DNA of 64,000 nt from an uncultured virus (IMG/VR IMGVR_UViG_3300032136_000003) (IMGVR_UViG_3300032136_000003), one strand, 5' to 3'; numbered from the stretch's first letter, positions 6,137 through 56,191 are shown. Notes: a model not told the origin generated them from the sequence alone. A program made the numbers and translations.

Positions 6137-6211
6137 GGGGTGCGATTAGTTCAGTGGCAGAACTGTCTTTTGCGCTAGATAAGTCGCCGGTTCGATTCCG
6201 GCATCCACCCC
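6137..6211 (+). tRNA. atypical or pseudo-tRNA (anticodon ambiguous, TGC or GCG)
   Basis: D arm GTTC-AGTGGCA-GAAC; canonical T arm GCCGG-TTCGATT-CCGGC; acceptor with bulged C; 8-nt anticodon loop; no encoded CCA. Confidence 0.6.
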
Positions 6212-10541: not shown

Positions 10542-10976
10542 ATGTCACCTAACACAAGCATACCAGAACTACGGGGAGACCTTAGGGCTGTGTACAGGTC
10601 ACTGCTTCATTGGAGGCAGGACCATAAAAAATTAAAACTCTTTGGTGGGGTGAAGCCTTTCGCCAAAGTATTCAACAATGAACAATGTCCCATGTGCCAG
10701 CGCCATCGGACCGAGCACAGAGTATATGGGCACAAACACCCATGTGGCCGGTGTCCACTAGATTGTACTATGGGTAGCGCATTCGGCAAGGCTTGGTTCG
10801 CCAACGTACTCCCCCTATTTGCCGAGAGGCGAAGAAAGAAATTCAACAGCGCTCGAGAGCAGATTGTAGGGACGTTGCTCGACGAACAACTTAGGCTGGA
10901 GAGTCTACTAAAGGAAGCGTTAGTAAATGAACAAACAGAAGCGGCGGTCTCTCGTTTAGGGGGTGTTGAAAGATGA
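10542..10976 (+). CDS. Cys-rich hypothetical protein
   Basis: CPMC...CGRCPL; AAGGAG SD. Confidence 0.65.
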   Translation: MSPNTSIPELRGDLRAVYRSLLHWRQDHKKLKLFGGVKPFAKVFNNEQCPMCQRHRTEHRVYGHKHPCGRCPLDCTMGSAFGKAWFANVLPLFAERRRKKFNSAREQIVGTLLDEQLRLESLLKEALVNEQTEAAVSRLGGVER

Positions 10977-11143
10977 ACAAACCCATTAAGGTAAAGAAGG
11001 ACATTAAATCAGGAATCATAATTGAAAAATCGTGGAATTCTCTTAGGGGAACCCTACGTGATGGTTTTCACCTCGGTCCAACCGAGAAGATTGTGGCAGT
11101 AGAGCCGACAGAAGACGGCTTGAAGATCCAGATTACAAGATAA
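10973..11143 (+). CDS. small hypothetical protein (56 aa, not in ORF track)
   Basis: ATGA overlap; MNKPIKVKKDIKSG... Confidence 0.55.
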   Translation: MNKPIKVKKDIKSGIIIEKSWNSLRGTLRDGFHLGPTEKIVAVEPTEDGLKIQITR

Positions 11144-11146
11144 CTT

Positions 11147-11184
11147 AGTCGGGTGCGGTATGATAAGTACCGCACCCAACTTTT
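11147..11184 (+). terminator. intrinsic terminator
   Basis: GGGTGCGGTA/TACCGCACCC + TTTT. Confidence 0.65.
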
Positions 11185-11241
11185 CTTAGCGATTTTATAG
11201 GTTCGAAACATTATTAATAACACAAACGAAAGGTAACCAGT

Positions 11242-11634
11242 ATGGCAAAGCTATCAATAACAATTGGAAAGACGGAAACAAACAAGGGCTCCGGCCTCGG
11301 TATTTACACACAGATGGAGGACGCAGACGAGTTGCAGGCTGCTATGAAAGTGTTCATAGAATCTGGTATGGATATAGAAGTGCTAAGGGGTTTCGATGTA
11401 GCTACTTTACTTGGGGTGTCAATAGCTATGGGCATTAATACGGTGGTGCATGACGCTTTACAAGCCTTGGACATAGGGCCTTCAGACGAGGTTCTTGGTG
11501 ACCCGTCGAGAGGCGTCGACGCCCGCGACCGAGCGATAACAATGGGTATCATAAAAGACCCGGCGCTCCAGAAAGACCTGGAAGAGATATCCAAAATGCT
11601 CGGAGACATAACTCCTGACAAGGAGACTGCCTGA
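11242..11634 (+). CDS. hypothetical protein
   Basis: AAAGGT SD. Confidence 0.65.
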   Translation: MAKLSITIGKTETNKGSGLGIYTQMEDADELQAAMKVFIESGMDIEVLRGFDVATLLGVSIAMGINTVVHDALQALDIGPSDEVLGDPSRGVDARDRAITMGIIKDPALQKDLEEISKMLGDITPDKETA

Positions 11635-11825
11635 TGGATAAATGGTATCTGGAAAAAGTAAAGGACGAACGGTGCCCCTCACGGTGCATCGTTCGTGAAG
11701 ACGGAAGCTACGTGGCTATCAACGTTAGGACAGAAGATGCTGAGTTTATAATTGACGCCCGGGACAGGGCTATAGCCGCTGAGGAACGCGTCATCATTAA
11801 ACGAGGCCTCCTGTTACAGAAATGA
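11634..11825 (+). CDS. hypothetical protein
   Basis: TGATG overlap; AAGGAG SD. Confidence 0.6.
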   Translation: MDKWYLEKVKDERCPSRCIVREDGSYVAINVRTEDAEFIIDARDRAIAAEERVIIKRGLLLQK

Positions 11826-11834
11826 GGAGTCATA

Positions 11835-11990
11835 ATGGCTAGAAATTGCAAGGACGGAATGTGCGGCGCCTGGGACTGCGGGAAGTGCTTCCCTTACTCC
11901 GAGGCTGAAATTGAGTATCAGGAGGCGAAGGAAGAGGCGCAGCTTGATCGGATGGATCGGGAACGTGAACAAGAAAGCGAGGAAGGATGA
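11835..11990 (+). CDS. small Cys/acidic protein ending ESEEG (51 aa, not in ORF track)
   Basis: GAGGAG SD; MARNCKDGMCGAWDCGKC...EQESEEG. Confidence 0.65.
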   Translation: MARNCKDGMCGAWDCGKCFPYSEAEIEYQEAKEEAQLDRMDREREQESEEG

Positions 11991-12511
11991 AACATTACAA
12001 AACAATAGATGAGTTAAAGGCTGACTTAAATGATTATAAAGACTTGATTGTCCCTGAACATGATGTCAAGGTTGATTTTGACATTCCGTTGGGAGTGTTA
12101 AGAAATATTGAGTGCAGGAACTTCACCGGCAGGAACTTCACCAGCAGGGATTTCAACGGCTGGGATTTCAATGGCTGGAATTTCACCGGCGGGAATTTCA
12201 CCGGCGGGAATTTCACCGGCTGGAACTTCACCGGCTGGGATTTCAATGGCTGGGATTTCAATGGCTGGGATTTCAATGGCTGGGATTTCAATGGCAGGAA
12301 CTTCACCGGCAGGGATTTCAACGGCGGGAATTTCACCGGCGGGAATTTCACCGGCATGGATTTCAACGGTGACCACATAGATTATTACGCATTATTCGTC
12401 TGTTACGACTCATGTTCTTGTCTGTCACATAAATCGAGGCGCAACAACGCTCTACCTATCCAGTGTTTAGATGGGGAGTTGATTATCAGGGAAGAAAGCG
12501 AGGAAGGATGA
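11987..12511 (+). CDS. pentapeptide-repeat protein
   Basis: 17 tandem x(N/D)F(T/N)G pentapeptides encoded by a 15-nt repeat at 12116-12370. Confidence 0.75.
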   Translation: MKHYKTIDELKADLNDYKDLIVPEHDVKVDFDIPLGVLRNIECRNFTGRNFTSRDFNGWDFNGWNFTGGNFTGGNFTGWNFTGWDFNGWDFNGWDFNGWDFNGRNFTGRDFNGGNFTGGNFTGMDFNGDHIDYYALFVCYDSCSCLSHKSRRNNALPIQCLDGELIIREESEEG

Positions 12512-12515
12512 CAGA

Positions 12516-12695
12516 ATGATTAAAAAATGTCCATGCTGTAAAAAGCGGATTTGGAGATGGTGGAAAATCAGGAAGAGACGGATGAACACTCGATTTGTTG
12601 ACGAATCTCGTAATTTTCTAATGTCATGCGAATCATGCGCCCAAGAAACTTATGACTATTATTCGGACTTATGGTCTGAATGTTACTACGGATAA
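12516..12695 (+). CDS. small zinc-finger protein (59 aa, not in ORF track)
   Basis: MIKKCPCC...CESC...ECYYG. Confidence 0.55.
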   Translation: MIKKCPCCKKRIWRWWKIRKRRMNTRFVDESRNFLMSCESCAQETYDYYSDLWSECYYG

Positions 12696-12733
12696 AGGCA
12701 CTCGTTGCCAACAGAACAAGAAAGCGGGGAAGG

Positions 12734-13036
12734 ATGAATCTAGATACAATTACGTGGTTTGATTTATACCAGAGGGCCGAACATAAAAAGCATTTCGCAG
12801 AGCAAAAAAGGGCAGAAGGTGTTTTTGGCATAGCTATTGAAAAGGATATATTTGCAAAAATATGGCAAAGGGTAGATAGACAATCTCGAAAGTTTGAGGG
12901 ACGATTAAGGGCTTCTCTAGGGCAAAACTATTATAAGAATAGATGTGGTCGATGTGGTTATATGAGATACACAGAGGCATGTTGCAAGGAATTGGATTCG
13001 CAATCACTACAGACAAGAGAAAGCGGGGAAGGATGA
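12734..13036 (+). CDS. hypothetical protein ending ESGEG
   Basis: Starts and ends within junction motifs. Confidence 0.65.
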   Translation: MNLDTITWFDLYQRAEHKKHFAEQKRAEGVFGIAIEKDIFAKIWQRVDRQSRKFEGRLRASLGQNYYKNRCGRCGYMRYTEACCKELDSQSLQTRESGEG

Positions 13037-13218
13037 AAATAACAATAAAGCAGGCACGTAGGACGATTAAACAGGCATTCAAAAAAGACCCTGATTTCAG
13101 GCGTGGTTATGTTGATAATATAGCCTGTGTAATTATGGATAACGCCAAAGGATACACAAGAGACAAGGCTAAGCGTGATGCTTTGGCAGATAAGATACTG
13201 ACTCATATTTTGGGATAA
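13033..13218 (+). CDS. small basic hypothetical protein
   Basis: Starts in junction motif. Confidence 0.65.
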   Translation: MKITIKQARRTIKQAFKKDPDFRRGYVDNIACVIMDNAKGYTRDKAKRDALADKILTHILG

Positions 13219-13256
13219 TTAAAGGCACTCACTACAGAACAAGAAAGCGAGGAAGG

Positions 13257-13418
13257 ATGAAAGCTAAAGAATTGCTATTACTACTTGCAGAAATACTCAA
13301 TGCAGGAGAATTACAGCCTCACCATATTGGAGCTATAAAAGAAGTTTTGAATTATCCTACTGATGAGGAATTGTCAAAGATTATATTAACAGGAGAATTG
13401 AAAGAAAGCGAGAAGTAA
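13257..13418 (+). CDS. small hypothetical protein ending ESEK (53 aa, not in ORF track)
   Basis: Starts in junction motif; MKAKELLLLLAEIL... Confidence 0.6.
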   Translation: MKAKELLLLLAEILNAGELQPHHIGAIKEVLNYPTDEELSKIILTGELKESEK

Positions 13419-13422
13419 CAAA

Positions 13423-13629
13423 ATGAAACGTTGTGGATTTAAGCGGTCAACAATTTGGATAGATGACGATAAGCTTGAGACTTGGCGATGTAGTCGCCTA
13501 GGTAAGCATAAGTTTAATGATATTGATGGAGACGGAGAAATACTGCTTTGTACTCAACATTTTAAAATCGCAACTAAAGATTGCGAACTGCAAAGAGAAA
13601 GCGAGGAACAAAAATGCCAACTAACATAA
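13423..13629 (+). CDS. small Cys/His hypothetical protein
   Basis: Between junction motifs; ESEE near C-terminus. Confidence 0.6.
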   Translation: MKRCGFKRSTIWIDDDKLETWRCSRLGKHKFNDIDGDGEILLCTQHFKIATKDCELQRESEEQKCQLT

Positions 13630-13880
13630 TTACAGTTAATAACGCCGAAGAATTAGAATGGACAGTTTCAGACAGCAAGATGCCTGCAATTCTGTCTGTA
13701 CTTGATGCGATTGGAGAACGCACATGGTTATTGTGCGACTCTGATGTCGCGGATGAATTTAGGATAATGCAGCGATCAGGTGAGTGGTCGGACTGGCTAC
13801 CTATGCCTGACGATCTTAAAGGCAAAACCCTATACAACGGTTTCTCCGACATAGTGCAACACAGGTGTCGTAACAAATGA
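13614..13880 (+). CDS. hypothetical protein
   Basis: ATG after junction motif at 13597. Confidence 0.6.
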   Translation: MPTNIITVNNAEELEWTVSDSKMPAILSVLDAIGERTWLLCDSDVADEFRIMQRSGEWSDWLPMPDDLKGKTLYNGFSDIVQHRCRNK

Positions 13881-14140
13881 GCAGATTAATATGTGATTCT
13901 TGCGGAAAGCAATTTGTGATAGGGAACTTAGAGAGTTACCAAGACTTAGAACAACATGCTAAAAAGCACGGCTGGACATTTATAGAAGATGTGCTTTGTT
14001 CTAAGTGTATTCCCGATTGCGAAATGTCTGTCAAGATAAACGGACTATGGACAGAGTGGACGCCTGAAAGACCTGTTAATTACGGTGTTGAGGTAAAATA
14101 TAGGATGACAAAAGTAAAGGAAGAAAGCGAGGAAGGATGA
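13877..14140 (+). CDS. zinc-binding hypothetical protein ending ESEEG
   Basis: CDSC...CSKC; ATGA overlaps. Confidence 0.65.
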   Translation: MSRLICDSCGKQFVIGNLESYQDLEQHAKKHGWTFIEDVLCSKCIPDCEMSVKINGLWTEWTPERPVNYGVEVKYRMTKVKEESEEG

Positions 14141-14340
14141 GTACTTGCCCAGAATGTTATGAGGATGTAGGTTGCACTTGCATAGAGAATAAGCGCATAG
14201 CACAACTCGAAAAGGCTATCTGCGTTTATCAGCGAGAAGAGCATGGACACATCGAATGGGAGGATGATGAGACTGCTATAGATGAGTTCTTGATGAGATG
14301 GAATGATGAAACGTGTGATAAAGAAAGCGAGGGAAAATGA
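14137..14340 (+). CDS. acidic hypothetical protein ending ESEGK
   Basis: CPEC; bounded by junction motifs. Confidence 0.65.
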   Translation: MSTCPECYEDVGCTCIENKRIAQLEKAICVYQREEHGHIEWEDDETAIDEFLMRWNDETCDKESEGK

Positions 14341-14708
14341 GTGACTTAATCAGTGAGTATACGAAAAGTGGTTTAGTAAGTTCGCCTGCACTAAACTTTG
14401 AAGAATGTCATGGCTGTAGAGGTAGATTTCATAGAGATGAGTTAAACGATTATCTTTGTGCTGATTGTGAATTAGAAGACAAAAAGCATAGAGACCTGCT
14501 AAATAGAAAACTTAGAGGCGAATTAGATATGGCGGAGGCAAAAATCAAAATACTTGAGGGAATAAGAGATTGCTATAACGAATTACTAGCTGAGGTTGTT
14601 AATAAATACGAAGGAATTAGTAGGCACGACAGGGCTAAAGCTATCATAAGATCATCTGAACAGATGTGTAGCAGGGGTTCAGCTAAAATAGAAAGCGAGG
14701 GAGGATGA
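14337..14708 (+). CDS. zinc-finger/coiled-coil protein ending ESEGG
   Basis: CHGC...CADC; bounded by junction motifs. Confidence 0.65.
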   Translation: MSDLISEYTKSGLVSSPALNFEECHGCRGRFHRDELNDYLCADCELEDKKHRDLLNRKLRGELDMAEAKIKILEGIRDCYNELLAEVVNKYEGISRHDRAKAIIRSSEQMCSRGSAKIESEGG

Positions 14709-14750
14709 AGAAGTTAATAACGGCAAGAGTAAAGAAAGAGAGGCTTCATA

Positions 14751-14879
14751 ATGGCAGGAAAAGGAGATAGACCACGTCCGGTAGATCGGACTAAGTGGGA
14801 GTCCGCCCCTTATTGGAAGCAATTAGAGCTGCGGAAGCGAAAAGAGCAGATGGGCAGTTCTCGGGTAAAGAATAAATAA
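14751..14879 (+). CDS. small basic phage protein (42 aa, not in ORF track)
   Basis: MAGKGDRPRPVDR...; GAGG SD. Confidence 0.55.
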   Translation: MAGKGDRPRPVDRTKWESAPYWKQLELRKRKEQMGSSRVKNK

Positions 14880-14888
14880 GGAGCACTC

Positions 14889-16199
14889 ATGGATAAAATT
14901 GTACCTTTTGACTGGCAACAACAAAAGATTGATCTTGTTGCTGAAATTTTTAAATCAAGTTCCGTAGCGTTCGATATGTCGGACACGGGAACTGGTAAGA
15001 CGGTTACGGCTCTTGGGATACTCAAGGCTTTGAACAAACCCGCCGTAGTTGTTGCGCCTAAAAAAGTTCACACCAGTTGGAAGCGTACGGCCGAGGCTAT
15101 GGGGGTATCACACCTTTTAATCGATGTGGTTAACGCAGAGAGACTGCAGTACAAAAACAACTGGTTTAAAATGGAGGGTAAGTGGCGTAAAGAACGGGGC
15201 GAGTGGGTTGGTAAAGGCATGTGGCTCGTACCAGCGGATGCTATGCTCATAATCGACGAAGTTCATCGGGGATGTAGTGGACCGAAGACAAAGACAACGA
15301 GAATCATGTCTTGTTCCAAGGCTCAAAAGATCCCCGTACTTGCGATGTCGGCTACGATGGCGGACAACCCTTTAAAAATGCGATTCATCGGATACTTAGC
15401 GGGACTGCATATGTACAACCAAGCCTCCTTTTACGGGTGGTGCAGGAAGAACGGATGCTTTGAAATGCCTGGAATCCGGGGCCTCCACTTCTCTAAAGGA
15501 CAGCGGGGCTCTGATCATATGGCCGCTATCCACAAGGAGATCAGCGACATATCTGTACGTACGAGGGCGGAGGATGTCCCAGGATTCCCCGAGTCGATAG
15601 TCCAGCCTAAGCTATACGACTTGGACGGAAAGTCGCTAGGGATGATGGTCTCGGCTTACGCAGAGCTCGCTAAACTATTAGAAGCTCACACGCCATTGAC
15701 GGAAATGCTTAGGGCTCGCCAAAAGGTAGAGCTTATTAAGGTACCGCTTCTGGCTGAGTTAGCCATAGAATCTATGGACGAGGGCAGGGCTCCTGTAATT
15801 TTTGTTAACTTTAGAGACACTCTTTTCAAATTGAAATCTGTTCTAGAGGGGATGAACTACGGCGTGGGCAAAGTTATTGGTGGTGAGAGCGCGGATGATG
15901 ACATCGACGCATTCAGTGCAGACAAACTGGACGCTATGATATGTATGACTTCTGGCGGATTCGGCATCAGCTTACACGCGACAGAGGGCATGAGACCTCG
16001 GGAGAGTTTCATCAGTCCATCGTACAACGCGGTTGACATGAAGCAGAACCTGGGTAGAATACGTAGGATTAATGGTAGTAAAGTGGTGCAGACGTTTGTC
16101 TTAATCGCTAACACTATTGAAGAGAAAATACACGACGCAATTATGCGGAAGGCACGAAACATTGCATCACTTAACGGTGATGACTTATTAGGATTATAA
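14889..16199 (+). CDS. superfamily 2 (DExH/SNF2-like) helicase
   Basis: GTGKT, IIDEVH, SAT and QNLGRIRR motifs. Confidence 0.85.
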   Translation: MDKIVPFDWQQQKIDLVAEIFKSSSVAFDMSDTGTGKTVTALGILKALNKPAVVVAPKKVHTSWKRTAEAMGVSHLLIDVVNAERLQYKNNWFKMEGKWRKERGEWVGKGMWLVPADAMLIIDEVHRGCSGPKTKTTRIMSCSKAQKIPVLAMSATMADNPLKMRFIGYLAGLHMYNQASFYGWCRKNGCFEMPGIRGLHFSKGQRGSDHMAAIHKEISDISVRTRAEDVPGFPESIVQPKLYDLDGKSLGMMVSAYAELAKLLEAHTPLTEMLRARQKVELIKVPLLAELAIESMDEGRAPVIFVNFRDTLFKLKSVLEGMNYGVGKVIGGESADDDIDAFSADKLDAMICMTSGGFGISLHATEGMRPRESFISPSYNAVDMKQNLGRIRRINGSKVVQTFVLIANTIEEKIHDAIMRKARNIASLNGDDLLGL

Positions 16200-16214
16200 A
16201 GGAGACACAGTATT

Positions 16215-17258
16215 ATGACATCAGTACTCGTACCAGAATTGGTAAAAGAAACAGAGGGCCTGGAGGAATCTAAGGCGTTGACACTTCGAGGAGAGTTCAC
16301 AGATATGTTTACTCAGGCGCAGGATTGGGCCGAGAAAGCAAGCAAGATACAGGTCACCAGCGTGACACAGGTAGCGGAAATGAAGCAAGCCAAAGAGGCT
16401 CGCCTCGCTCTAAAGAATCTTCGTTGCGAAACGGAGAAGACTCGTAAGCGTTTAAAAGAGAATTGCTTGAGAGAAGGTAAAGCGATAGACGGGATGGCTA
16501 ACCTCGTAAAGTATCTTGTTGTTCCTATAGAGGAGCACCTCAAGGAACAAGAGGACTTCATTCTGCGTAAGTTAGCAGAAGAAGCAGCTCTCAAATTAGA
16601 GGCTCGTCAGGATAAAATACGGAACGCAGATCCTTCGATCGACGTTTCTATTCTTAACCTCGGTGGCATGGAGGACGAACAGTTCGAAACGTACTTGGCT
16701 CAAGTTATTGAAACCAAGGCACTTAGGGAGAAAGAAGCTGCGAGATTGGATCTTGAAAAGAAAGCTGCTGAAGAAGCTGCTGCAAAGAAGCGTGAAGAAG
16801 ATCGGATAGAGCGGGAGCGTCTTGAGAAAGAGAACGCTAAGCTCGAAGCTGAAAAGAAAGCACGCGAAGCAGAAGCTGAGAAGGCTCGCATTGCCGCAGA
16901 GAATAAGTTAGCCGCCGAACGCAAGGCTCAGGAAGAAAAACTTCGAATCGAACGCGAAGCAAAGGAAGCTCTTGAAGCTAAACTTCGCAAAGCTGAAGAG
17001 GAGAAAGCCGAAGCAATTCGCAAAGCTAAAGAAAAAGAGCTGCGTGATTTGAGGCGTAAGGAACGTGAAGCTAAGAAAGCTGCTGCGGCTCCGGAACTGG
17101 TCAAGTTGGAAGCATTTCGAGCGGCAATCGATAGTATCGAGCCTCCTCATCTGTCAGATCCAGACCTCGTAATCATCGTGACCCAAGCAATAGCTATGCT
17201 GGAGTCTATTAACGTTGATATTAAGAACGCAGTAAAGGCGTACAAAGAGAGGACATAA
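16215..17258 (+). CDS. long coiled-coil protein (possibly DUF1351-like)
   Basis: Charged E/K/A/R helical body; sits next to exonuclease. Confidence 0.5.
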   Translation: MTSVLVPELVKETEGLEESKALTLRGEFTDMFTQAQDWAEKASKIQVTSVTQVAEMKQAKEARLALKNLRCETEKTRKRLKENCLREGKAIDGMANLVKYLVVPIEEHLKEQEDFILRKLAEEAALKLEARQDKIRNADPSIDVSILNLGGMEDEQFETYLAQVIETKALREKEAARLDLEKKAAEEAAAKKREEDRIERERLEKENAKLEAEKKAREAEAEKARIAAENKLAAERKAQEEKLRIEREAKEALEAKLRKAEEEKAEAIRKAKEKELRDLRRKEREAKKAAAAPELVKLEAFRAAIDSIEPPHLSDPDLVIIVTQAIAMLESINVDIKNAVKAYKERT

Positions 17259-17260
17259 TT

Positions 17261-18403
17261 ATGGGAAAGCACAAACACGCAAGGTTCAGTCCGTCGAGTC
17301 ACGATTCACTGGAACAGTGTATCAGGTTTGAATACCTACAGCAGGACGACGGAGACGAGAACGCCGCAGCATCTGAGGGTCAGATGTTGCATGATGCTTA
17401 CGAGAGAGAGTGTCTAGCCGGTCTTGACGACGAGCAGAAAAACTGTGTTCAAGGTCTCATCGACTATAGAAACAGTTTACTCGCCACAGAAGGCGGGCCC
17501 GACTGTTGGGAACTGATCAAGGAAGGTAAGTGGACTCTTGAGGATAGAACTTATGGCAGAGCAGATGATGTTCTGATCCACAAGACTAAACCAATTGTAC
17601 ACGTTAATGATGCTAAGTTCACACGTCGAGACGATGATCATTCACACCAGGTTGAGACATATGGGGCGGCTGTCTTTGAAGAGAGGTTCTTAGGAACGAA
17701 GTTCGAAGACGAAGTTATCATTCACACTCACGTTGCTATGCCACGCGTAAAGACTATACATTCAGAAACTTACAAAGGTACTGAGTTGTATAAGAAAACA
17801 TGTGACCGCATAGACGCTTTGTATGAACGGATAGAAGACCCATTCAACCCACCAACACCGCACGAAGATTTGTGTGAGCGTTGCAACCGTGCTGGCAAGT
17901 GCCCCGCTTTGGGCAAGGCCGTAGTACAGGTTGCTCAGGGTATTGGATTGCCTCTGCCTGAAGTGTTCGCCCCTAATGCTATTGTTAGCCTTAGAGACAG
18001 AGCTCTTGCGCAAGTGTTGGCCGGTGCTCTTAAGACGTGGGCTGAAAAGGTGAAGAAAGCGAACAACGAGTTCGCTAAAGAGGGGAATGATATCCCCGGC
18101 TTTACTCTTCGTTCCCGTTCCAACGGTTATCGCGCTGGTAATGACGTCACTAATGACATCTTCGCAACACTCAAAGACAGTGGTGTTGATGAAGCTGAGA
18201 TATTAAACGCGTGTACGTTTAGTCTATCAAAGTTTGCGAAGAACAGGTCTGCTATAAGCATGTCCTCGGAGGCTGAGATAAAAGAGGAAGTGCAAGCACA
18301 AATCGGTGAGTATCTCACAGAGAGTTCTTCTCAGTTTCTCGTCAAAGCTAAACGCATAGATGACGTAACTGCTCTCAAGGCAGCCGCGCAGATTGGAGGA
18401 TAA
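17261..18403 (+). CDS. PD-(D/E)XK exonuclease (Cas4-like / DUF2800-like)
   Basis: FSPSS..C, EG..LH, GRADD, DAK, Q..Y, CERC.....CP. Confidence 0.75.
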   Translation: MGKHKHARFSPSSHDSLEQCIRFEYLQQDDGDENAAASEGQMLHDAYERECLAGLDDEQKNCVQGLIDYRNSLLATEGGPDCWELIKEGKWTLEDRTYGRADDVLIHKTKPIVHVNDAKFTRRDDDHSHQVETYGAAVFEERFLGTKFEDEVIIHTHVAMPRVKTIHSETYKGTELYKKTCDRIDALYERIEDPFNPPTPHEDLCERCNRAGKCPALGKAVVQVAQGIGLPLPEVFAPNAIVSLRDRALAQVLAGALKTWAEKVKKANNEFAKEGNDIPGFTLRSRSNGYRAGNDVTNDIFATLKDSGVDEAEILNACTFSLSKFAKNRSAISMSSEAEIKEEVQAQIGEYLTESSSQFLVKAKRIDDVTALKAAAQIGG

Positions 18404-33698: not shown

Positions 33699-36600
33699 TT
33701 ATGGGTTCCTGAATGCGTCCTCGATCCACTCTTTCTGTTGATCGGTTAGCTTCCTCGGCTTGCCGTACAAGAAGTTTCTGCTCTTCATACTCCTCTGAGT
33801 ACTGCGGATAGTTCCGTTGACTCTGAGGATGGCGCGACTCCACTTCTCTGTGGACACCTTGTCGTTACCGTCGATCGCTCTGTACAACTTAGCATACAAT
33901 TCTTTCATCACAACACCACGAGCTGACTTGAGAACTTTCTCTCCGTCATACCCATTACGGTTAGCCGCGTCAAGGATAGCTGGCCCAAGAGCTTCAAGGT
34001 TGGCTTTAACCTTTTTATTCTTGTATATGTTATCCGTTCCACCGGCCTTGGCCCACGTTTCAAGCAACCCGGTATATGCCTCAGTGGCTCCACGGAACGA
34101 TATACCTTTGCTCGTTGGACCGAGGAGCTGGAACGGGGCTGCGTCAGGATGCTTAGACCAGGCCAAGATACTGAACGGCATGAACTTCTGGACAGTGTAC
34201 CCAGCACGTGAACCCATGAAACCACCATCTTCACTCATGATCAACCCAGCAAGACCCATGTCCTTGAACTCAAGCTCCCAACCGCCACCACCAGCTGATT
34301 CTCCAGTAGCCTGTTCAATCGCCCAGCGGGCTGGTTGTGACAGCTTACCAGTAAGAGAACCCCAAGGAGTGTCAAGCCAGCGCTTTATTTCGTACGCCTG
34401 CTTACCCCAGCGGATGTATGTCCGACGCTCTCCAGTCGGGTATCCCTTATAGAATGGGAGGTTCCTTACCAGAGGAGTTATGTCAGCACTGAATTTTCTA
34501 CCCTCTTCGTTATTGAACATGAAAAATTCATCGTCATCATCAGGCGGTCCGAAGGCTCTACCTGCTGTGTATGCCAACGCCTGCACCATAGCAGGAACTA
34601 AAGTAATTACCCCCAGCATCATGGTAGGCCACCTGCGGAACATGATATGCTTGAACTCTTGATCAGACAAATATGTCTTGGAGAATGCTCCGGTCAATAA
34701 CTCTCCACCAGCAGCTCTCCAAGCCGATATCGACCAGTTAGGTGAGAACATCAGCAGGGAAAGGTTACGCCTCCAAGTAGGTGTCATATAAGACATCTTA
34801 TTCCAGTTCACTCCACCAAGTTCACCGTTGATGTAGTTCACATACGGAGCCATGTCCTCTTCAAAATCAAACGGCAGACCCGCTGCCTCAGCCTCAGCTT
34901 CCAATTTCTGTGCCATGAAGTGAGCGGCCCAGAGTTTGGCTGAGTTAAAGAAGCTGTCAAAGACTATCTCTGTTTGTTTCAGTGGTAGCTTGGCGATCAT
35001 CTCAAAGTTATCTGCTGCTTTCTTACCGATGTTGGTGAGAACCCAGTCAGTCATCTTCGCTATGTCCTTCTCAAGGATACCCCGCGGCAGACTTAATGGA
35101 TGAGATGAGTCACTATAAGTGATACCTATCTTGCGCCCTTTCTTCATTAGTTCTACCACGTACGGATGTTCGGACTTGATAGCTTCTTCAAACTCGAGAA
35201 GCATCTTAAGACCACCCTGCCTCCAGAATTCTCCATGAGACAAAGCAGTGAGCGATTCCAAACCAGCGATTGGGAAGAACAATGAGAACTGTAGAGCCCC
35301 CATCTTCATCCAAGCATTAGCGCGTTCGATTCCTTTGAGCGCCCCATATGGATCTTGCCAAGGAGTTTCAAATACGTGCTTCAAGATACCAGCCACCTCG
35401 CCACCAGCCATTGCCGCGTCTAGAATGTTTTCTCCTCCTCGGCCCCGGTGTATTGTATAGAACGCGTTGACTGATGGATAAGGCGACTCAACTCTTGTAT
35501 AGCCTTTATTTTTTACGAAATGATCCTGCACCATTTGATCTATGTTCCACTTAGCAGACTGTGTTTTGTCGAGAGGCTTACCCAAATAACGAGAAAGATT
35601 CTGAGCAACAGCTTCCCAAGTAACGTCCGTGACAAGATTCTCACCAGCGTAATTCAGGTTAGGAGACGGAATAACGAGAGGCGTGTTAGCCGCGTCTGTG
35701 GTAAGAAGCATTTGATTTATCATAGCCCTGTTAGCAGTACTCGTCATAATGTCAGACGCGTATTTGTGCAGCATTTCGTTAGCCCCAATGCTATCAGGTC
35801 TGTAACCACCAAGCATATAAGCATCTTCGTATGTGCTGTACTTACGAGTTTTTGTTCTATTGCTATACCCACGATTCTTGAAATCAACCATCATCTCACC
35901 AGTAGCTTTCGCCAGAGCGAGGGGATGCTCGAGCATATCCCCATCAGCAAGTTTGATAGGATCGTCGAGAGTCTTCTGAGCATTCGCTAAACGAGCTAGC
36001 AGTCTGTCATAAACTTCTCCGTGAATGAAGTTAGCCAAGTCAGCATAATCCATGTCAGGAGTTAGCCCGATGTCCTTGTGAGCTCCCGATCTGATCTCAG
36101 AGATAGCTTGACCTTCGTTCTTGAAGTGCAGTCCTTTGAGACCGAAAGCAAACTTGAGCATCTTGTATGAAGCGTCCGTGAGACTTCTCACCCTACCGCT
36201 TGCTTCTTTGGAAGCGGCTAAAGTTAACCTATGGGATTCCATGTTCTTCTCGAGGACGGCTTGGATGTTTTTCTCTAATGCAAGCCTGGCTGCTTTCTCT
36301 TCAGTACCCAAGAAACCAATACCCTTGTAATGGGTAACGTAGTTTTCGCGGTGCCACAGATAAGGTGCGTCAGGGCTCACGAACCAAGGAAGATCAGTTG
36401 TTACTTCCTTGTATAAGTTCTCCAAACGCTCCGACGTTTCACGCGCCAGTTCAGCTATATCCATGCGCTTAGGATCCCTACCAGCATCCAAAAGTTTCTG
36501 TCTATAAGAGGATGATCTAAAGTATTTGTCAATCATGCTAACAGGAACCATCCAGTTCATCTTGGTTGGGCGCCAGTTGCTATCTTCTTCCTGACCGTTA

Positions 36601-39600
36601 GCCAATGTTTCTGTTGCATCTGCCCTATAGTCAGCGTCACCGACGTTGATAGGAACCTTCTGATATATACCAATACCAGCAGCATGCAGGGCACGAGCTA
36701 CAGCTCTGTCTCGAGCCAGTTGCTCGGGACGGCTTTTTCCATCCATCTTAATACCAGCCATAACCTTTTTCTTGGCTTCAAGCAATTGGTCAGCTATTTC
36801 TTTCGGGAATACATCGTAGATACTCTTATCGTTCTCAGTGAATATACCTGTTATAACGTGCGCTACTTCCAGAGCAGCCTTGTGGTCTGTCTTGCCATCT
36901 TTGGTAGCGTGCTCCATGCTGGCCATTGCAGCCGCTTGGACTACTTCAGCAAGTTTTCTCTCGTCCTCAGTCAACTTATTTCTAGTCGCCCCACTTGCAT
37001 GAGTAGTACGAGTTAATTCAGGTCCCTCTCCCCTGTTACCCTTCAAATCTATTTTGGTTTTCTCTGTGATGAACGCACGTACTTGGCCCCCGTCACCAAG
37101 AGCCCATTCGTGAATGATCTTAGTATAGTGGGCACTCTCTTCAGCCAGTATAGCGCTCAGCTTACCCTGCTCTTTCATTAGAATCCTATGCAAAGCGTTA
37201 GATCCACCGATAAGAGAGGGAGCGATGATGCTGTTCAACACTTCAGCCGCATTCAATACAGACGCTGAAACAGTTCCATCAACGTAATCAGAGTCACCTG
37301 CTTCTTGAACCATGGCATATGGTGGTATTTTATGGGGGATGATATTGTGGTCACTCATCCTTGCTGTCTGCATTCTAGGTACGTTGTTCGCGGCATGCTC
37401 AAGCAGTGACAGGATGGTAGCGTTGTCCATACCATAAATCTTTTGGTCTTTAATAGCCATCAAGCTGGCACGAGCAGCTTCGAAAGTAGGTGCTGCTTTG
37501 TATCCAACCAATGCCTTATCCCAAGCAGACTTGATCTTGGCAGCTTCGATAGCAACCTTGTTCTTGCCTTCTTTCTTGGCATGCTCCATCGCAGCTTGTT
37601 CTTTCTCACCTAGCTTGATGGCTTTCTGTTTCATGTGCCATGAGACAAGTTGATCGCGACTTTTGGCCCTGTCAGCCCAGATGTTGGACGTACGTTTACC
37701 TGTGCCGTCGTATGTTCTATCAAAGATATCCATAGTGTTTTCGACGCGGGCACGAAGTCCAGCCATATCACTACGGCGGTACAGTTTGGAGTCTCTCAAC
37801 TCAAGCTGTGCCATAACGAAGTCACCCTCGTTTATGGCTTCTAACATATTCTTGAAACCTGGGAGAACGCTCCAATGATACAAGTCAACGATAGCGACCT
37901 GACGCTCAGTAGAAAGTTTGTCGAATCCAGCAATATCTTTACGGGCTTTTGCGATATACTTTTTGGTGAAGTGGTTGAGAAGCGCATCGTACTCTGCTTC
38001 TGTTATGCTCTTCTTACCGCTCTTCAGATCCTCGAATGACGCCCCGGTGATCTTCTCTATCTCAGCCTTGCGCTTATCAAACAATCTGATTCCCGGGCCG
38101 ATGGCTGGTGTACCTAGATCGTCGTACGCTGACATGTTACGTCCAGTACGCCCCTCGAAACTCGCGATACGTGCTGCAGCAGCTTGTTCCATATTGAGCT
38201 GTTTGACAGATTCAATTGGATTGCCTACCTTGCCACGAGCGTCCATCGTTGGGGTCACTGCCGTAGCAATCAGCCCAGCGGCTACGAGCTCCCGAATGGA
38301 AGCTGTAGTTTCGCCGGTAGCTGCGATCTCAACGCCCGATGGTGTGGGAGAAAACAGGGGTTGCTGTACCGGAGCTACCTGACGTGCAGGGGCTGCGGCC
38401 TCCTTTGTTGAGATCAAGGGTTTAAGTCTATTTGTATAAAGTCTTGTGTCTGCTTGAGATAATCCGCCAATACGATCGCGAGATATCTCACGGGTCAGGT
38501 CTCTCGTTATAAGTTCAGGTTTCCTGTTCTTATCTGTACGAATCCGATCGAATCTTTCAGCGTGGGCCTTGATCTCAGCATTGAAGAAACGCATATCGTT
38601 ACGCGCGCTTTCGGGCATCGGTCTTGGAATTGATTCACCGTAGTTACCGCGAACCCTTGCATATTCATAAGCAGCTCTCGATTTAGCTTGAACCGCTGAC
38701 TTAGCATCTACTATAGAAGCAGATGTTGTTCCCGGTCTCTCTATAATCTGAGGAGCTTCGGACACTACTTCCGAACGAGCTGTCTCCATATCCAACTCTC
38801 GGTACACACCGGGACGATGAAGCAATTTTACCTTGTCAGATGTTCTGGTTATTGCCGTGTAGTACCAACGACCTGCGTTCCAAGACGGGGCTACGTAGTC
38901 CTGATCCACGTAAACAGTTTCCCATTGGCTACCTTGAGACTTGTGGGCTGTAACTGCGTACCCGTAGGTAGCTATTACTAGCTTCTTGCTGACACCGAGT
39001 TTGCCCTCTTTGTCCTTTTTTATATCACCCTTATCCATTAATTTTATCAATGTTTCCCTCGATATTCCCTTCAGAATGTCTGGGTGATACAAGCTCGGTA
39101 TGTCCATGGCAGTTACAAAGTACATGGTCACGCGGCGGGGGCCTCCTTCTCCAAGGGTGTTTATCTGGGCGGTAACCCTCTTTACAGGTACTGTTATATC
39201 CTTCTTATACTTCCCAGACCCCTTGGTCGCCTGAACGGTGAATTCATACTCGTCGCTTTCTGATGCAGGCGCTTCGGTTACAGTGAACAACTCGCTGTTG
39301 GATACCCCCACAGCGTTGGCCACTCCCATAAGCCTATCTCCCTCGTTCAGCATGTTGTTCGCATCCGCCCCAAATAAGGCTTTCCTCGCGTACCTATTGT
39401 ACATATTCCGCTGTCTATTGGTGGCCGTTACCATAATCGTCTGTTCACTATCACGCTTCACGTCGTCCTGATAATCCCGAATGAATTTCTGATCCTGAGC
39501 CGTGTCATAGATCTTAAATTGTTCTGTACCAGCTCCTACGGGTATGGAGGGCACATTGTCTTGCCTCGTCTTAGTAGCCATTACCAAAACATCAGAGTCA

Positions 39601-55711: not shown

Positions 55712-56191
55712 TTATTCATCCTCCAAATAAGCGGCGGCCTTACGCAGAACGTCGGGGCGGTCCCTGAAATACCCCAGCCCAAAATTGCACCACTTGCACA
55801 ACAACCCGCGGACAACTCCGTCCACATGATCGTGGTCTACGCACAACCTCAATTCAAACTCTGCTTGATGTCTGCCGCACACGGCGCATCGACCTCCCTG
55901 AGCTTCAAACATCTTGACGTAATCCTCTGAGGTCACTCCATACTTTCGCAGCAAATTGCCCGCAGATTTGCGCAGGCGGTCGGCATCCCTTTGGCATACG
56001 TCTCCACAGTACTTCTGGTGAGCCGTCGCGGGCGTGAACAGGCTCCCGCACATCTCACACTCTGTATCAATCCTAGCCGCGGCCCGCAAATCTTTTTGTA
56101 TCTCGTGATGGTGCCTTTGCCCGCATTCGCTCGAACAAAACTTTGTTCGGGCACCCGACAGCTCTTTTCCACATACTATACAACTTTTCAT
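55712..56191 (-). CDS. recombination endonuclease VII-family (homing-like) nuclease
   Basis: KYGVT..DY..M...Q.G.CAVC...VDHDH...VRGLLC..CN.GLG.F.D; N-terminal zinc modules. Confidence 0.9.
   Translation of the reverse strand: MKSCIVCGKELSGARTKFCSSECGQRHHHEIQKDLRAAARIDTECEMCGSLFTPATAHQKYCGDVCQRDADRLRKSAGNLLRKYGVTSEDYVKMFEAQGGRCAVCGRHQAEFELRLCVDHDHVDGVVRGLLCKWCNFGLGYFRDRPDVLRKAAAYLEDE

What the first reader, a model, noticed from the sequence alone, without database searches (positions are those of the whole stretch)
11835..14708. Gene-cassette array: ten junctions share one 18-nt motif that also writes an ESEEG-like C-terminus
Seen: GAAAGCG(A/G)GGAAGGATGA or a close variant recurs at ten gene boundaries in 2.75 kb, and I did not notice it elsewhere. 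It supplies the SD and, in most copies, an ATGA stop/start overlap. Unrelated proteins therefore end ESEEG (x3), ESGEG, ESEGK, ESEGG or ESEK. The cargo genes are small, unrelated and look AT-richer than the flanking core genes. Conservation extends 5' of the SD (AAGAAAGC), more than ribosome binding needs. Inference: an integron-like array without an integrase, where genes are gained and lost by recombination at the junction and are translationally coupled on arrival; alternatively a shared C-terminal tag or a translational operator.
Basis: partly seen in the sequence, partly recalled or inferred. Interest (0 to 1): 0.83.

Follow-up and report, generated by a model that had tools for sequence, protein, structure and literature searches.

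The report
Shared junction links swappable phage genes
In an uncultured sediment phage, eleven small unrelated genes are chained by one recurring 18-letter joint that looks like a strong ribosome-binding and stop/start signal, and other phage fragments show that whole genes have been exchanged exactly at this joint.

Summary
The core GAAAGCGRG occurs 10 times in 64 kb, all on the + strand within 11973-14699. Six copies are exact 18-mers.

The conservation is in the DNA or RNA, not in the peptide:
- Two copies lie 24 nt after the upstream stop codon.
- The eight coding copies show no synonymous variation in the first two codons of the motif.
- 0 of 10 homologues of two cargo proteins carry the tail.

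The cargo genes are unrelated to each other, mostly ORFan and lower in G+C than the flanks.

A metagenome contig with a different backbone (L014) carries one cassette. Identity is 91% in DNA and 60 of 61 residues. It starts and stops at the two flanking motifs and the neighbours differ. L014 and L021 share an 81-nt module that ends at the motif. A contig from another sample joins a different upstream sequence at J5.

There is no integrase and no attC-like repeat. The motif can pair with a 16S tail ending CCUCCUUUCU as 6 bp, a bulged C and 4 bp.

Best reading: a bipartite Shine-Dalgarno and re-initiation joint that also serves as a short-homology linker for cassette exchange. This is a new variant of PeSL-like or SAS-like elements. 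The integron likeness is analogy only.

The parts
11973..11990 (+). J1: exact 18-mer. It forms the tail (ESEEG*) of gene 11835-11990 and supplies the SD and ATGA start of gene 11987-12511.
12494..12511 (+). J2: exact 18-mer. It forms the tail (ESEEG*) of the pentapeptide-repeat gene. Its ATG opens a 3-codon relay ORF whose TGA overlaps the ATG of gene 12516.
12720..12737 (+). J3: exact 18-mer (G variant). It is non-coding, lying 24 nt after the stop of gene 12516-12695. It supplies the SD and start of gene 12734-13036.
   Evidence: a contig of run X3 diverges just after 12737
13019..13036 (+). J4: exact 18-mer (G variant). It forms the tail ESGEG* of gene 12734-13036 and supplies the start of gene 13033-13218. 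It is the left boundary of the homology with L014.
   Evidence: a contig of run X3 diverges after 13037
13243..13260 (+). J5: exact 18-mer. It is non-coding, lying 24 nt after the stop of gene 13033-13218. It supplies the start of gene 13257-13418. It is the right boundary of the homology with L014.
   Evidence: a contig of run X3 joins unlike upstream sequence at 13240
13404..13425 (+). J6: 5' half only (GAAAGCGAG). Tail ESEK*. The next gene starts at 13423.
13597..13616 (+). J7: 5' half plus GAGGAA. The upstream gene reads on 16 nt past the next start at 13614.
14123..14140 (+). J8: exact 18-mer. Tail ESEEG* and ATGA start of gene 14137-14340.
14323..14340 (+). J9: variant with 3 mismatches. 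Tail ESEGK* and ATGA start of gene 14337-14708.
14691..14708 (+). J10: variant with 1 mismatch. Tail ESEGG*. Its ATG opens only a 21-codon ORF. It is the last junction of the array.
11818..11845 (+). Left border: diverged relative of the motif (AGAAATGAGG..TCATAATGGC) at the start of the first array gene.
   Evidence: (repeat D6)
14733..14761 (+). Right border: diverged relative of the motif (AGAAAGAGAGG..TCATAATGGC) at the start of gene 14751-14879.
   Evidence: (D6, D16)
11835..14708 (+). Array of 11 small same-strand genes: 11835-11990, 11987-12511, 12516-12695, 12734-13036, 13033-13218, 13257-13418, 13423-13629, 13614-13880, 13877-14140, 14137-14340 and 14337-14708. They show no significant pairwise similarity.
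13033..13218 (+). 61-aa cassette gene shared with contig L014. 60 of 61 residues are identical, and 9 of the 10 differing codons are synonymous.
12696..12719 (+). Long-form spacer (AAGGCACTC..ACAGAACAA) between a stop codon and J3. It resembles the spacer before J5 and the one in L014.
   Evidence: D2, D15
13219..13242 (+). Long-form spacer before J5. 13 of 29 aligned columns differ from L014, while the motif after it is identical.

Best explanation
The array is a run of promoterless small accessory (probably early) phage genes. They are chained by one standard joint with three overlapping roles.

(1) On the mRNA the joint is a translation re-initiation site. AGAAAG, a bulged C and GAGG form a bipartite, extended Shine-Dalgarno site. 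Four bases further on, an ATGA lets the stop of one gene overlap the start of the next. Each gene is therefore translated whatever its neighbour is. This step is inferred from position, complementarity and lack of structure.

(2) Upstream ORFs often run into the joint in the only frame that ends at its TGA. They therefore acquire an incidental E-S-E/G-E-G tail. This is shown by the sequence.

(3) The same 18-28 identical bases flank every gene, so the joint acts as a patch of short homology. Whole genes are swapped, gained or lost at it, within the array and between otherwise unrelated phages. The recombination would be homologous or copy-choice and needs no dedicated site-specific enzyme. That homology breaks at the joint is shown by comparison. 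The enzymology is inferred.

The exchange, selection on the signal, or both keep the copies identical.
For: Motif distribution and position:
- All 10 core copies lie on the + strand within 2.75 kb, and there are none elsewhere in the window.
- The motif ends 4 nt before, or overlaps, the next start codon.

Nucleotide-level constraint:
- J3 and J5 are non-coding.
- The eight coding copies all use GAA-AGC.
- 0 of 3 homologues of the 100-aa cargo protein and 0 of 7 homologues of the 123-aa cargo protein end in the tail.

Cargo has independent origins:
- The best pairwise E-value among 16 proteins is 0.06.
- The 87-aa protein finds only itself among 5.8 billion proteins.
- Homologues in L053, L174 and L175 sit at other junction sequences.

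Exchange at the joint:
- Of the 37 loci then held, only L014 matched the window by blastn. The match is 13010-13261 at 91%, that is from J4 to J5.
- In the alignment, 36 of 67 upstream columns and 45 of 70 downstream columns differ. Only 1 of 36 motif positions differs, against 13 of 29 in the spacer. Fisher one-sided p is 4e-5 against the spacer and 8e-11 against the outer flanks.
- L014 has a DUF3987-type backbone, unrelated to the window.
- L014 and L021 share 79 of 81 nt ending at the motif's ATGA, then diverge on both sides.
- In run X3, which is from another sample and study, one contig carries J5 and about 62 nt of gene 13257, with 2 changes, behind at least 255 nt of unlike sequence. 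Two further contigs leave the window at 12737 and 13037, the ends of J3 and J4.
- The cassette parts of both phages have similar low G+C (0.383 in L014, 0.396 in the window). The backbones are at 0.483 and 0.45-0.47.

Translation role:
- The duplex with GAUCACCUCCUUUCU is -12.5 kcal/mol (6 bp, bulge, 4 bp). With the E. coli-type tail it is -7.8.
- The mean is -12.1 for 8 array starts against -7.3 for 63 other starts.
- Such long tails are documented in Listeria, Streptococcus, Neisseria and Deinococcus (PMC6288834, passages read).
- Nine of the 10 junction RNAs fold no better than the mean of their shuffles; z-scores run from -0.52 to +1.56.

Comparison case:
- L175 holds homologues of two cargo genes joined by four different junction sequences. 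A uniform joint is therefore not the default.
Against: - Only 1 of the 11 cargo genes was found in another motif-bounded context.
- The same 61-aa gene family also occurs without the motif (L053, 71% identity).
- The array from 12326 to 15031 is letter-for-letter identical in a contig of a second study (X2 record 11, 0 other letters). Turnover is therefore not fast.
- No joint (deletion or circle form) appeared in the contig-level data. Contigs drop rare forms, so this is weak.
- For two of the three X3 loose ends the length of the matching part was not shown.
- 18-28 nt is short for efficient homologous recombination.
- No recombinase is assigned. Only a DUF2800 nuclease (17261-18403) and an endonuclease VII (55712-56191) are recognisable.
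- The host and its 16S tail are unknown, so the pairing model rests on an assumed tail.
- Pairing alone does not explain the invariant bulged C or the AAGG spacer.
- Mosaic boundaries at gene ends are also expected from random recombination followed by selection.
- L014 is a 2.5-kb metagenome contig, and an assembly chimera cannot be fully excluded.
Confidence: 0.55

Rival explanations
1. The motif is only a translational signal. It is a particularly good coupling and SD sequence that spread or converged because it works. Homology ends at it simply because it lies at gene boundaries, where random (illegitimate) recombinants survive selection. The motif itself does not promote exchange.
For: - Position and complementarity fit an SD. 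The junction RNA is open.
- Related phage gene clusters also put the SD in the upstream tail with ATGA or TAATG overlaps (L174, L175).
- The array is identical in two studies.
- The 61-aa family travels without the motif as well.
Against: - The other 63 starts in the window use varied SDs, and none uses this motif. Structural genes, which are presumably highly expressed, do not use it either.
- Positions without pairing potential (the bulged C, the AAGG spacer) are as invariant as the pairing ones.
- Exact 18-mers occur in the window and on three contigs that share no other DNA with it (L014, L021, L020; L014 and L021 could be one genome). This is hard to get by convergence.
- Both ends of the L014 match fall on the motif, while the adjacent spacer has diverged in 13 of 29 columns.
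Confidence: 0.25
2. The motif is an operator. A phage- or host-encoded RNA- or DNA-binding factor recognises AGAAAGCGAGG and switches the whole array on or off together. This has been proposed for Start-Associated Sequences and is known for T4 RegA (the RegA point is recalled, not checked here).
For: - Conservation extends beyond the bases that can pair with rRNA.
- The motif is restricted to one block of non-structural genes in one orientation. SAS has the same distribution (PMC3203893, passages read).
- In L020 the 5' half is followed once by a different, complete SD and ATGA unit. The 5' half may therefore have its own role.
Against: - No candidate binding protein was identified.
- The sites show no structure and no dyad symmetry.
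- It does not by itself explain the homology breakpoints.
- It is compatible with the best explanation rather than exclusive of it.
Confidence: 0.08
3. It is a true site-specific cassette system (integron-like). An unrecognised recombinase or nuclease, encoded elsewhere in the phage or host, cuts and joins at the motif.
For: - Cassettes are promoterless, same-strand and bounded by one site.
- Cassette content differs between contexts at the site.
- In L014 and L021 an 81-nt module with a TATAAT or TATAAG box precedes the first site, as an entry region would.
- Diverged site copies lie at both array borders.
Against: - No integrase, resolvase or transposase family was found in the 71 ORFs scanned (16, 55).
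- The site has no inverted repeats and no foldable attC-like structure.
- The site lies inside coding sequence in a fixed frame.
- No circular or deleted forms were seen (weak evidence).
Confidence: 0.04
4. The conserved element is a peptide. An acidic ESEEG C-terminal tag (for degradation, export or binding) is selected on each protein, and the DNA identity follows from that.
For: Seven proteins end in ES(E/G)(E/G)(G/K) or ESEK, and an eighth reads through the motif as ESEE.
Against: - Two copies are non-coding (J3, J5).
- The first two codons show no synonymous variation in the 8 coding copies.
- 0 of 10 homologues of two cargo proteins carry the tail.
- The 61-aa protein and its L014 copy lack the tail.
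- J6 and J7 truncate or read through it.
Confidence: 0.03
5. The array arose by tandem duplication of one gene together with its junction. The gene bodies then diverged beyond recognition while the junction stayed constrained.
For: - Several cargo proteins carry CxxC pairs.
- Earlier scan notes describe paralogue arrays with coding junctions in other phages (not tested here).
Against: - There is no significant pairwise similarity (best E 0.06).
- Lengths range from 51 to 174 aa.
- Separate cargo genes have their own homologues in other phages, next to other genes.
Confidence: 0.02

Closest known systems
PeSL (promoter-early stem-loop) regulatory cassettes of T4-type phages (Arbiol et al. 2010, PMC2839356: abstract and sections 13 and 16 read; Comeau et al. 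2014, PMC4122927: abstract read)
   Same: - Short repeated expression signals flank small ORFan genes in a plastic region.
- Differences between phages map to these repeats.
- The repeats are proposed to act as patches of homology that shuffle the genes they flank, while giving each gene its expression signal.
   Different: - PeSLs are about 100 bp, intergenic and transcriptional (a sigma-70 promoter plus a terminator stem-loop).
- The element here is 18-28 nt, translational (SD plus stop/start overlap), unstructured and mostly inside the upstream coding sequence.
- It therefore also writes a peptide tail.
- Mini-circles were shown for PeSLs and are not shown here.
Start-Associated Sequences (SAS) of Cluster K mycobacteriophages (Pope et al. 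2011, PMC3203893: passages of section 15 read)
   Same: - An asymmetric short repeat contains the SD core.
- It lies a few bases upstream of start codons and in one orientation.
- It is confined to non-structural genes and associated with unrelated gene families.
- It is conserved at positions that cannot pair with 16S rRNA.
- It is rare in the host.
   Different: - The sequence is different (SAS is 13 bp).
- SAS copies are scattered over half a genome, not chained at consecutive junctions.
- The passages read report no stop/start overlap rule and no role in gene exchange.
Integron gene-cassette arrays
   Same: - Promoterless cassettes on one strand, of unrelated function and deviant composition, are each bounded by a recurring site.
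- Cassette content differs between carriers.
   Different: - There is no IntI-type integrase.
- There is no attC-like imperfect inverted repeat.
- The site is coding and translational.
- Exchange is most likely by homology, not by site-specific recombination.
Translational coupling at ATGA overlaps with an intragenic Shine-Dalgarno site (general bacterial and phage operon feature; recalled knowledge)
   Same: The SD lies in the last codons of the upstream gene and the stop overlaps the next start.
   Different: Ordinary coupled genes each have their own junction sequence, as in L175. Here one near-identical 18-mer is reused at 8-10 consecutive junctions and in other phages.
Linker or 'boundary sequence' model of modular phage evolution (Botstein; lambdoid phages; recalled, papers not read here)
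   Same: Short conserved sequences between interchangeable modules serve as sites of homologous exchange.
   Different: That model was proposed for large functional modules of temperate phages. Here the unit is a single small gene, and the linker is a translational signal.
'LRW' self-coupling small-gene arrays noted earlier in this scan in giant freshwater phages (AI notes, not checked here)
   Same: The last codons of each gene spell the next gene's ribosome-binding site and start. Relatives gain or lose whole genes at the joint.
   Different: Those arrays hold paralogues of one family and use a different motif. Here the cargo genes are unrelated, and the joint is shared by contigs with unrelated backbones.

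Membership tests
Integron | Tyrosine-recombinase integrase (IntI) next to the array | tested here: not met
   Pfam scans of 16 + 55 ORFs of the window found no integrase, recombinase or transposase family. The window is only part of a contig of at least 83.6 kb.
Integron | attC sites: imperfect inverted repeats that fold as hairpins at each cassette boundary | tested here: not met
   No inverted repeat lies at any junction; the 3 pairs found are long-range and elsewhere. The 10 junction RNAs have z-scores from -0.52 to +1.56.
Integron | Promoterless, co-oriented cassettes whose content varies between carriers at the site | tested here: met
   There are eleven + strand genes. Promoter-like sites number 9, against 10.8 expected from shuffles, and none recurs at the joints. 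Breakpoints lie at the motif in L014, L021 and run X3.
PeSL regulatory cassette (T4-type phages) | Sigma-70-like early promoter within the repeat | tested here: not met
   No promoter-like site coincides with the motif copies. The 81-nt leader module of L014 and L021 does hold a TATAAT or TATAAG box.
PeSL regulatory cassette (T4-type phages) | Stem-loop terminator or attenuator within the repeat | tested here: not met
   The only strong hairpin nearby is at 11151-11177, upstream of the array.
PeSL regulatory cassette (T4-type phages) | Repeats flank ORFans, and differences between phages map to them | tested here: met
PeSL regulatory cassette (T4-type phages) | Excised mini-circles formed between neighbouring repeats | not testable with these tools
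   Only contigs of older runs could be laid. No joints were seen, and contigs drop rare forms.
Start-Associated Sequence (Cluster K mycobacteriophages) | The 13-bp consensus given in PMC3203893 | tested here: not met
   The motif here has a different sequence. The likeness is in kind, not in family.
Start-Associated Sequence (Cluster K mycobacteriophages) | Asymmetric repeat with an SD core, a few bases before start codons, in one orientation, on non-structural genes of unrelated families | tested here: met
Translationally coupled overlapping cistrons | SD inside the upstream gene's 3' end and a stop/start overlap | tested here: met
   ATGA is present at 8 of 10 motif copies. At J1, J4, J8 and J9 it is a true overlap of two array genes. 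Coupling itself was not measured.
Translationally coupled overlapping cistrons | Downstream translation depends on upstream translation | not testable with these tools
   This needs reporter or ribosome-profiling experiments.

The most novel reading that the evidence does not exclude
Phages of one sediment community share a common pool of promoterless ORFan gene cassettes. The cassettes move between unrelated phage backbones through a standard 18-nt 'translational joint'. The joint is at once ribosome-binding site, stop/start overlap and recombination site. In function this is an integrase-free integron, written in the translation signals and leaving a peptide scar (ESEEG) on its cargo. The non-pairing bases and the 81-nt leader module may be recognised by a dedicated factor.
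Probability: 0.3. Interest if true: 0.8.

Novelty: new variant of a known kind. Interest (0 to 1): 0.6.

Why it matters
Phage genomes are full of small, fast-changing genes of unknown function. Many of these turn out to be host-takeover or anti-defence factors, and how they are gained and lost is poorly understood.

This case gives a clean example of a short standard linker between single genes. The linker guarantees expression on arrival through translational coupling and provides homology for exchange. That is the old 'linker' idea of modular phage evolution at single-gene resolution, and a translational counterpart of the transcriptional PeSLs.

Practical consequences:
- Gene callers mis-set starts here (for example 12680 instead of 12734).
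- Shared C-terminal tails on unrelated ORFans can be junction scars and not motifs of function.
- The joint is a natural design for stacking genes with coupled translation.
- Scanning metagenomes for repeated junctions could define the mobile accessory gene pools of phage communities.

Tried and rejected
Searches that found nothing useful:
- GenBank phages gave no match: blastn of 11000-16500 and tblastn of the helicase.
- The helicase has no relative in viral contigs.
- The exact 19-mer in viral contigs gave 2 loci. One (L001) is the same contig as L021. The other is a single copy in a GC-rich context.
- In metagenome contigs it gave 35 loci. Only L014 matches the window. L021 shares the leader module with L014. 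L018/L020 (2-3 copies) and L035 (2 copies) have small arrays of their own. The remaining loci have a single exact copy in unrelated contexts, and I treat them as unrelated or unresolved.
- In genome contigs it gave 15 loci in diverse taxa. Each has one exact copy, and no host candidate or array emerged.
Only 1 of the 120 is followed by ATGA, and that one is the L021 contig.
- Cargo searches in viral contigs: the 123-aa protein alone gave no relative and the alignment A4 gave none.
- The 87-aa cargo protein has no homologue but itself.

Sequencing runs:
- No RNA holder is listed among the runs, so expression could not be examined.
- Read laying showed no joints, deletions or circles. Only contigs were available, so this says little.

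Other checks:
- Junction RNA folding and inverted-repeat search found no structure.
- The sigma-70 promoter scan was at the level of shuffles.
- PHROGs gave only weak hits of unknown function for the cargo.
- An N4-like identity for the phage was considered because of the gene order and a giant ORF on the opposite strand. Pfam sees only a RecD/PIF1-like helicase domain in that ORF, so I do not claim it.
- Motif conservation against third-codon-position divergence in the window-L014 pair is not significant (1 of 36 against 8 of 61, p = 0.09). Only the contrasts with the spacer and the outer flanks are significant.
- Earlier scan notes: nothing for this place or sequence.

Literature:
- A full-text search for a 14-nt string of the motif found 0 papers.
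- A term search for phage cassette or coupling arrays returned the PeSL papers and nothing closer.
- Subscription journals are not covered.

Full report
**Setting.** The window has the make-up of a large tailed-phage genome.
- Genes run on the + strand to about 33.6 kb and on the - strand after that.
- Recognisable products are an rIIA-like and an rIIB-like protein, a family-A DNA polymerase, a superfamily-2 helicase (14889-16199), a DUF2800 nuclease (17261-18403), an RNA ligase, an endonuclease VII and a 5540-aa ORF.
- No whole genome is held.
- GenBank phages hold nothing similar to 11000-16500 or to the helicase.
- One cargo protein is on record on a contig of 83,589 bases.
- The stretch 11600-15000 is held by three sediment-metagenome runs from two studies.

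- The 9-nt core GAAAGCGRG occurs 10 times, all on the + strand between 11973 and 14699. Shuffles give a mean of 1.16 and a maximum of 4.
- The full 18-mer with up to 3 mismatches occurs 8 times, 6 of them exact, against 0.12 expected.
- In the alignment of the ten junctions only A-GAAAGCG-G is invariant and the flanks are unrelated.
- The array is lower in G+C (0.396 for 12516-14708) than the DNA to its left (0.448) and right (0.473).

Eleven same-strand genes lie between 11835 and 14708.
- At J1, J4, J8 and J9 the motif is both the last five codons of one gene and the SD and ATGA start of the next.
- At J2 the motif's ATG opens only a 3-codon ORF, whose stop again overlaps the real start at 12516. 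At J10 it opens a 21-codon ORF (read).
- At J3 and J5 the upstream gene has already stopped, in both cases exactly 24 nt before the 18-mer. The motif is therefore non-coding there. It is preceded by a related spacer, which also appears in contig L014.
- J6 and J7 keep only the 5' half of the motif.
- One junction (13877) has an ATGA overlap without the motif.
- The starts of the first array gene and of the first gene after the array carry diverged relatives of the motif within a 22-nt direct repeat.
- Of the 13 AGAAA-N(0-3)-GAGG sites in the window, 9 lie in 11818-14745. The other 4 are inside genes.

**The conservation is in the nucleic acid, not in the peptide.**
- Two copies are non-coding.
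- The eight coding copies all spell the first two codons GAA-AGC, with no synonymous variant.
- The 100-aa cargo protein has three homologues (71, 64 and 60% identity). Their conserved part ends at the same place and their tails are all different.
- The 123-aa cargo protein has seven alignable homologues. They share a conserved C-terminal domain but none has the tail.
- The 'C-terminal tag' idea is therefore disfavoured. The tail is a scar of the joint.

**The cargo genes have separate origins.**
- Among 16 proteins of the region the best pairwise E-value is 0.06.
- Pfam and PHROGs give only a pentapeptide-repeat match for 11987-12511 and weak hits of unknown function.
- The 87-aa protein finds only itself among 5.8 billion clusters.
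- Homologues of single cargo genes sit in other viral contigs at ordinary, different junctions: L053 for the 61-aa gene, and L174 and L175 for the 123-aa gene's domain.
- L175 also holds a likely homologue of the 59-aa gene (E 1.3e-6 against a 16-protein set). Its four junctions share no sequence with each other.
- A uniform joint is therefore not what such gene clusters normally have.

**Exchange at the joint.**
- A scan of metagenome contigs for the exact 19-mer returned 35 loci. Only L014 matched the window by blastn. The match is window 13010-13261 at 91%, that is from J4 to J5.
- In the alignment, 36 of 67 columns upstream and 45 of 70 downstream differ. Inside, the 61-aa gene differs at 10 of 186 bases (9 synonymous codon changes and 1 replacement; 60 of 61 residues identical).
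- The 24-nt spacer differs in 13 of 29 columns. The two 18-mers differ at 1 of 36 positions. Fisher p is 4e-5 against the spacer and 8e-11 against the outer flanks, but only 0.09 against third codon positions.
- L014 carries three exact 18-mers within 450 nt. The cassettes on either side of the shared one are different from the window's, and the backbone is unrelated (a DUF3987 protein).
- Its cassette part has G+C 0.383, against 0.483 for its backbone. This mirrors the window.
- L014 and L021 come from the same sample. L021 is a contig with terminase genes. The two share 79 of 81 nt ending exactly at the motif's ATGA and are unrelated on both sides. This module holds a TATAAT (L014) or TATAAG (L021) box and a 13-codon mini-ORF that ends in the motif. 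Whether L014 and L021 are two phages or two loci of one genome is not known.
- In run X3, from another sample and study, one contig carries J5 and about 62 nt of gene 13257 with two changes, behind at least 255 nt of unlike sequence. Two more contigs follow the window up to 12737 and 13037, the last bases of J3 and J4, and then continue with unlike sequence. For those two the length of the matching part was not shown.
- A further GC-rich contig pair, L018 and L020, chains small genes with the same motif at two junctions and its 5' half at a third.

**What the joint does on the mRNA (inferred).**
- GAGG ends 4 nt before the ATG, which is a normal SD position.
- The 5' extension AGAAAG is the complement of CUUUCU, the end of the long form of the 16S 3' tail. 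That form is documented for Listeria, Streptococcus, Neisseria and Deinococcus (PMC6288834, passages read).
- The predicted duplex is 6 bp, a bulged C and 4 bp. Its energy is -12.5 kcal/mol, against -7.8 with the E. coli-type tail. The 8 array starts average -12.1 and the 63 other starts -7.3.
- The junction RNAs are unstructured: minimum free energy -3.3 to -7.2 kcal/mol, and z at or above 0 in 9 of 10.
- Together with the ATGA overlap this fits a strong termination/re-initiation site that would express any gene placed behind it.
- Pairing does not explain why the bulged C and the AAGG spacer are as invariant as the pairing bases, or why no other gene of the phage uses the motif. Identity maintained by exchange between copies, or recognition by a further factor, would explain both.

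**What it is not.**
- There is no integrase, resolvase or transposase family among the 71 ORFs scanned (16, 55).
- There are no inverted repeats at the joints.
- There is no promoter or terminator pattern at them.
- It is therefore neither an integron nor a PeSL by membership, and its sequence is not that of the Cluster K SAS.
- In its workings it is closest to PeSLs, which are expression signals that double as recombination linkers around ORFans (PMC2839356, abstract and sections 13 and 16). It is also close to SAS, which are start-associated repeats conserved beyond rRNA pairing.

**Limits.**
- Only one of the eleven cargo genes was found in a second motif-bounded context.
- The array from 12326 to 15031 is identical in a contig from a second study, so turnover is slow on that scale.
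- No deletion or circle forms were seen, but only contigs could be laid.
- The host is unknown.
- 18-28 nt is a short homology.
- Selection on random recombinants would also place breakpoints at gene ends.
- Metagenome contigs can be chimeric.

**Verdict.** I put 0.55 on the dual reading (coupling signal plus homology linker) and 0.25 on the reading that the motif is a translation signal only. The rest is spread over an operator, a true site-specific system, a peptide tag and a duplication origin.

**Novelty.**
- A full-text search for the motif string found no paper, and a term search found nothing closer than the PeSL papers. Subscription journals are not covered.
- Earlier notes of this scan describe analogous 'LRW' arrays of paralogous small genes in giant freshwater phages, where the tail codons spell the next ribosome site and relatives swap genes at the joint (not checked here). 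The general design has therefore been met before on other DNA.
- The present case differs in three ways: the cargo is unrelated, the motif is different, and the joint is shared across unrelated backbones.
- I class it as a new variant of a known kind.

Noticed in passing
window 6139-6211 (+): ARAGORN calls a tRNA of undetermined identity with a four-letter anticodon (tgcg). Rfam's tRNA model matches at 33.5 bits (gathering score 29).
   Followed up: no
window 33699-50321 (-): A single 5540-aa ORF. Pfam recognises only a RecD/PIF1-like helicase unit (AAA_30, UvrD_C_2) at about residues 3400-3830 and nothing in the first 2774 residues.
   Followed up: partly
window 11987-12511 (+): This cargo gene encodes a pentapeptide-repeat protein built on about 15 tandem 15-nt repeats (NFTG/DFNG units). 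The repeats break the Logan contigs at 12216-12326. The protein could be a DNA mimic; this was not tested.
   Followed up: partly
window 11151-11177: A strong 11-bp hairpin followed by a T-run lies between genes 10973-11143 and 11242-11634. It may mark the start of the transcription unit that holds the array.
   Followed up: no
L014 1791-1888 (reverse strand numbering) and L021 227-309: An 81-nt module (79 of 81 identical) is shared by two otherwise unrelated contigs. It holds a TATAAT or TATAAG box and a 13-codon mini-ORF ending in the motif. It may be a promoter and leader entry module for the arrays.
   Followed up: partly
L020 900-1151: A second recurring joint (GGAAAGGACGGYGGGGAATGA, giving tails ..GKDGGE*) occurs in the same GC-rich phage contig. 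Once it lies directly behind the 5' half of the motif studied here.
   Followed up: partly
L175 2403-3165: A viral contig holds likely homologues of two window cargo genes (the 59-aa Zn-ribbon protein and the C-domain of the 123-aa protein) one gene apart. Its four junction sequences are all different.
   Followed up: partly
window 14708-14731: In run X1 two contigs end and begin here, directly after J10, overlapping by 24 nt. In run X2 one contig runs through. This may reflect a branch (variant) at the array's end in that sample.
   Followed up: no
window 16757-16789: A contig of run X1 matches only 33 nt here (3 changes), with unlike sequence on both sides. It lies inside the lysine/glutamate/alanine-rich coiled-coil gene 16215-17258 and is probably a low-complexity match.
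   Followed up: no
window 12680-13036, 12943-13218, 13581-13880: Longest-ORF calling places three starts upstream of the motif, in a frame that reads the joint as K-R-G-R-M. The starts at the motif's ATG (12734, 13033) and at 13614 fit the junction pattern better.
   Followed up: yes
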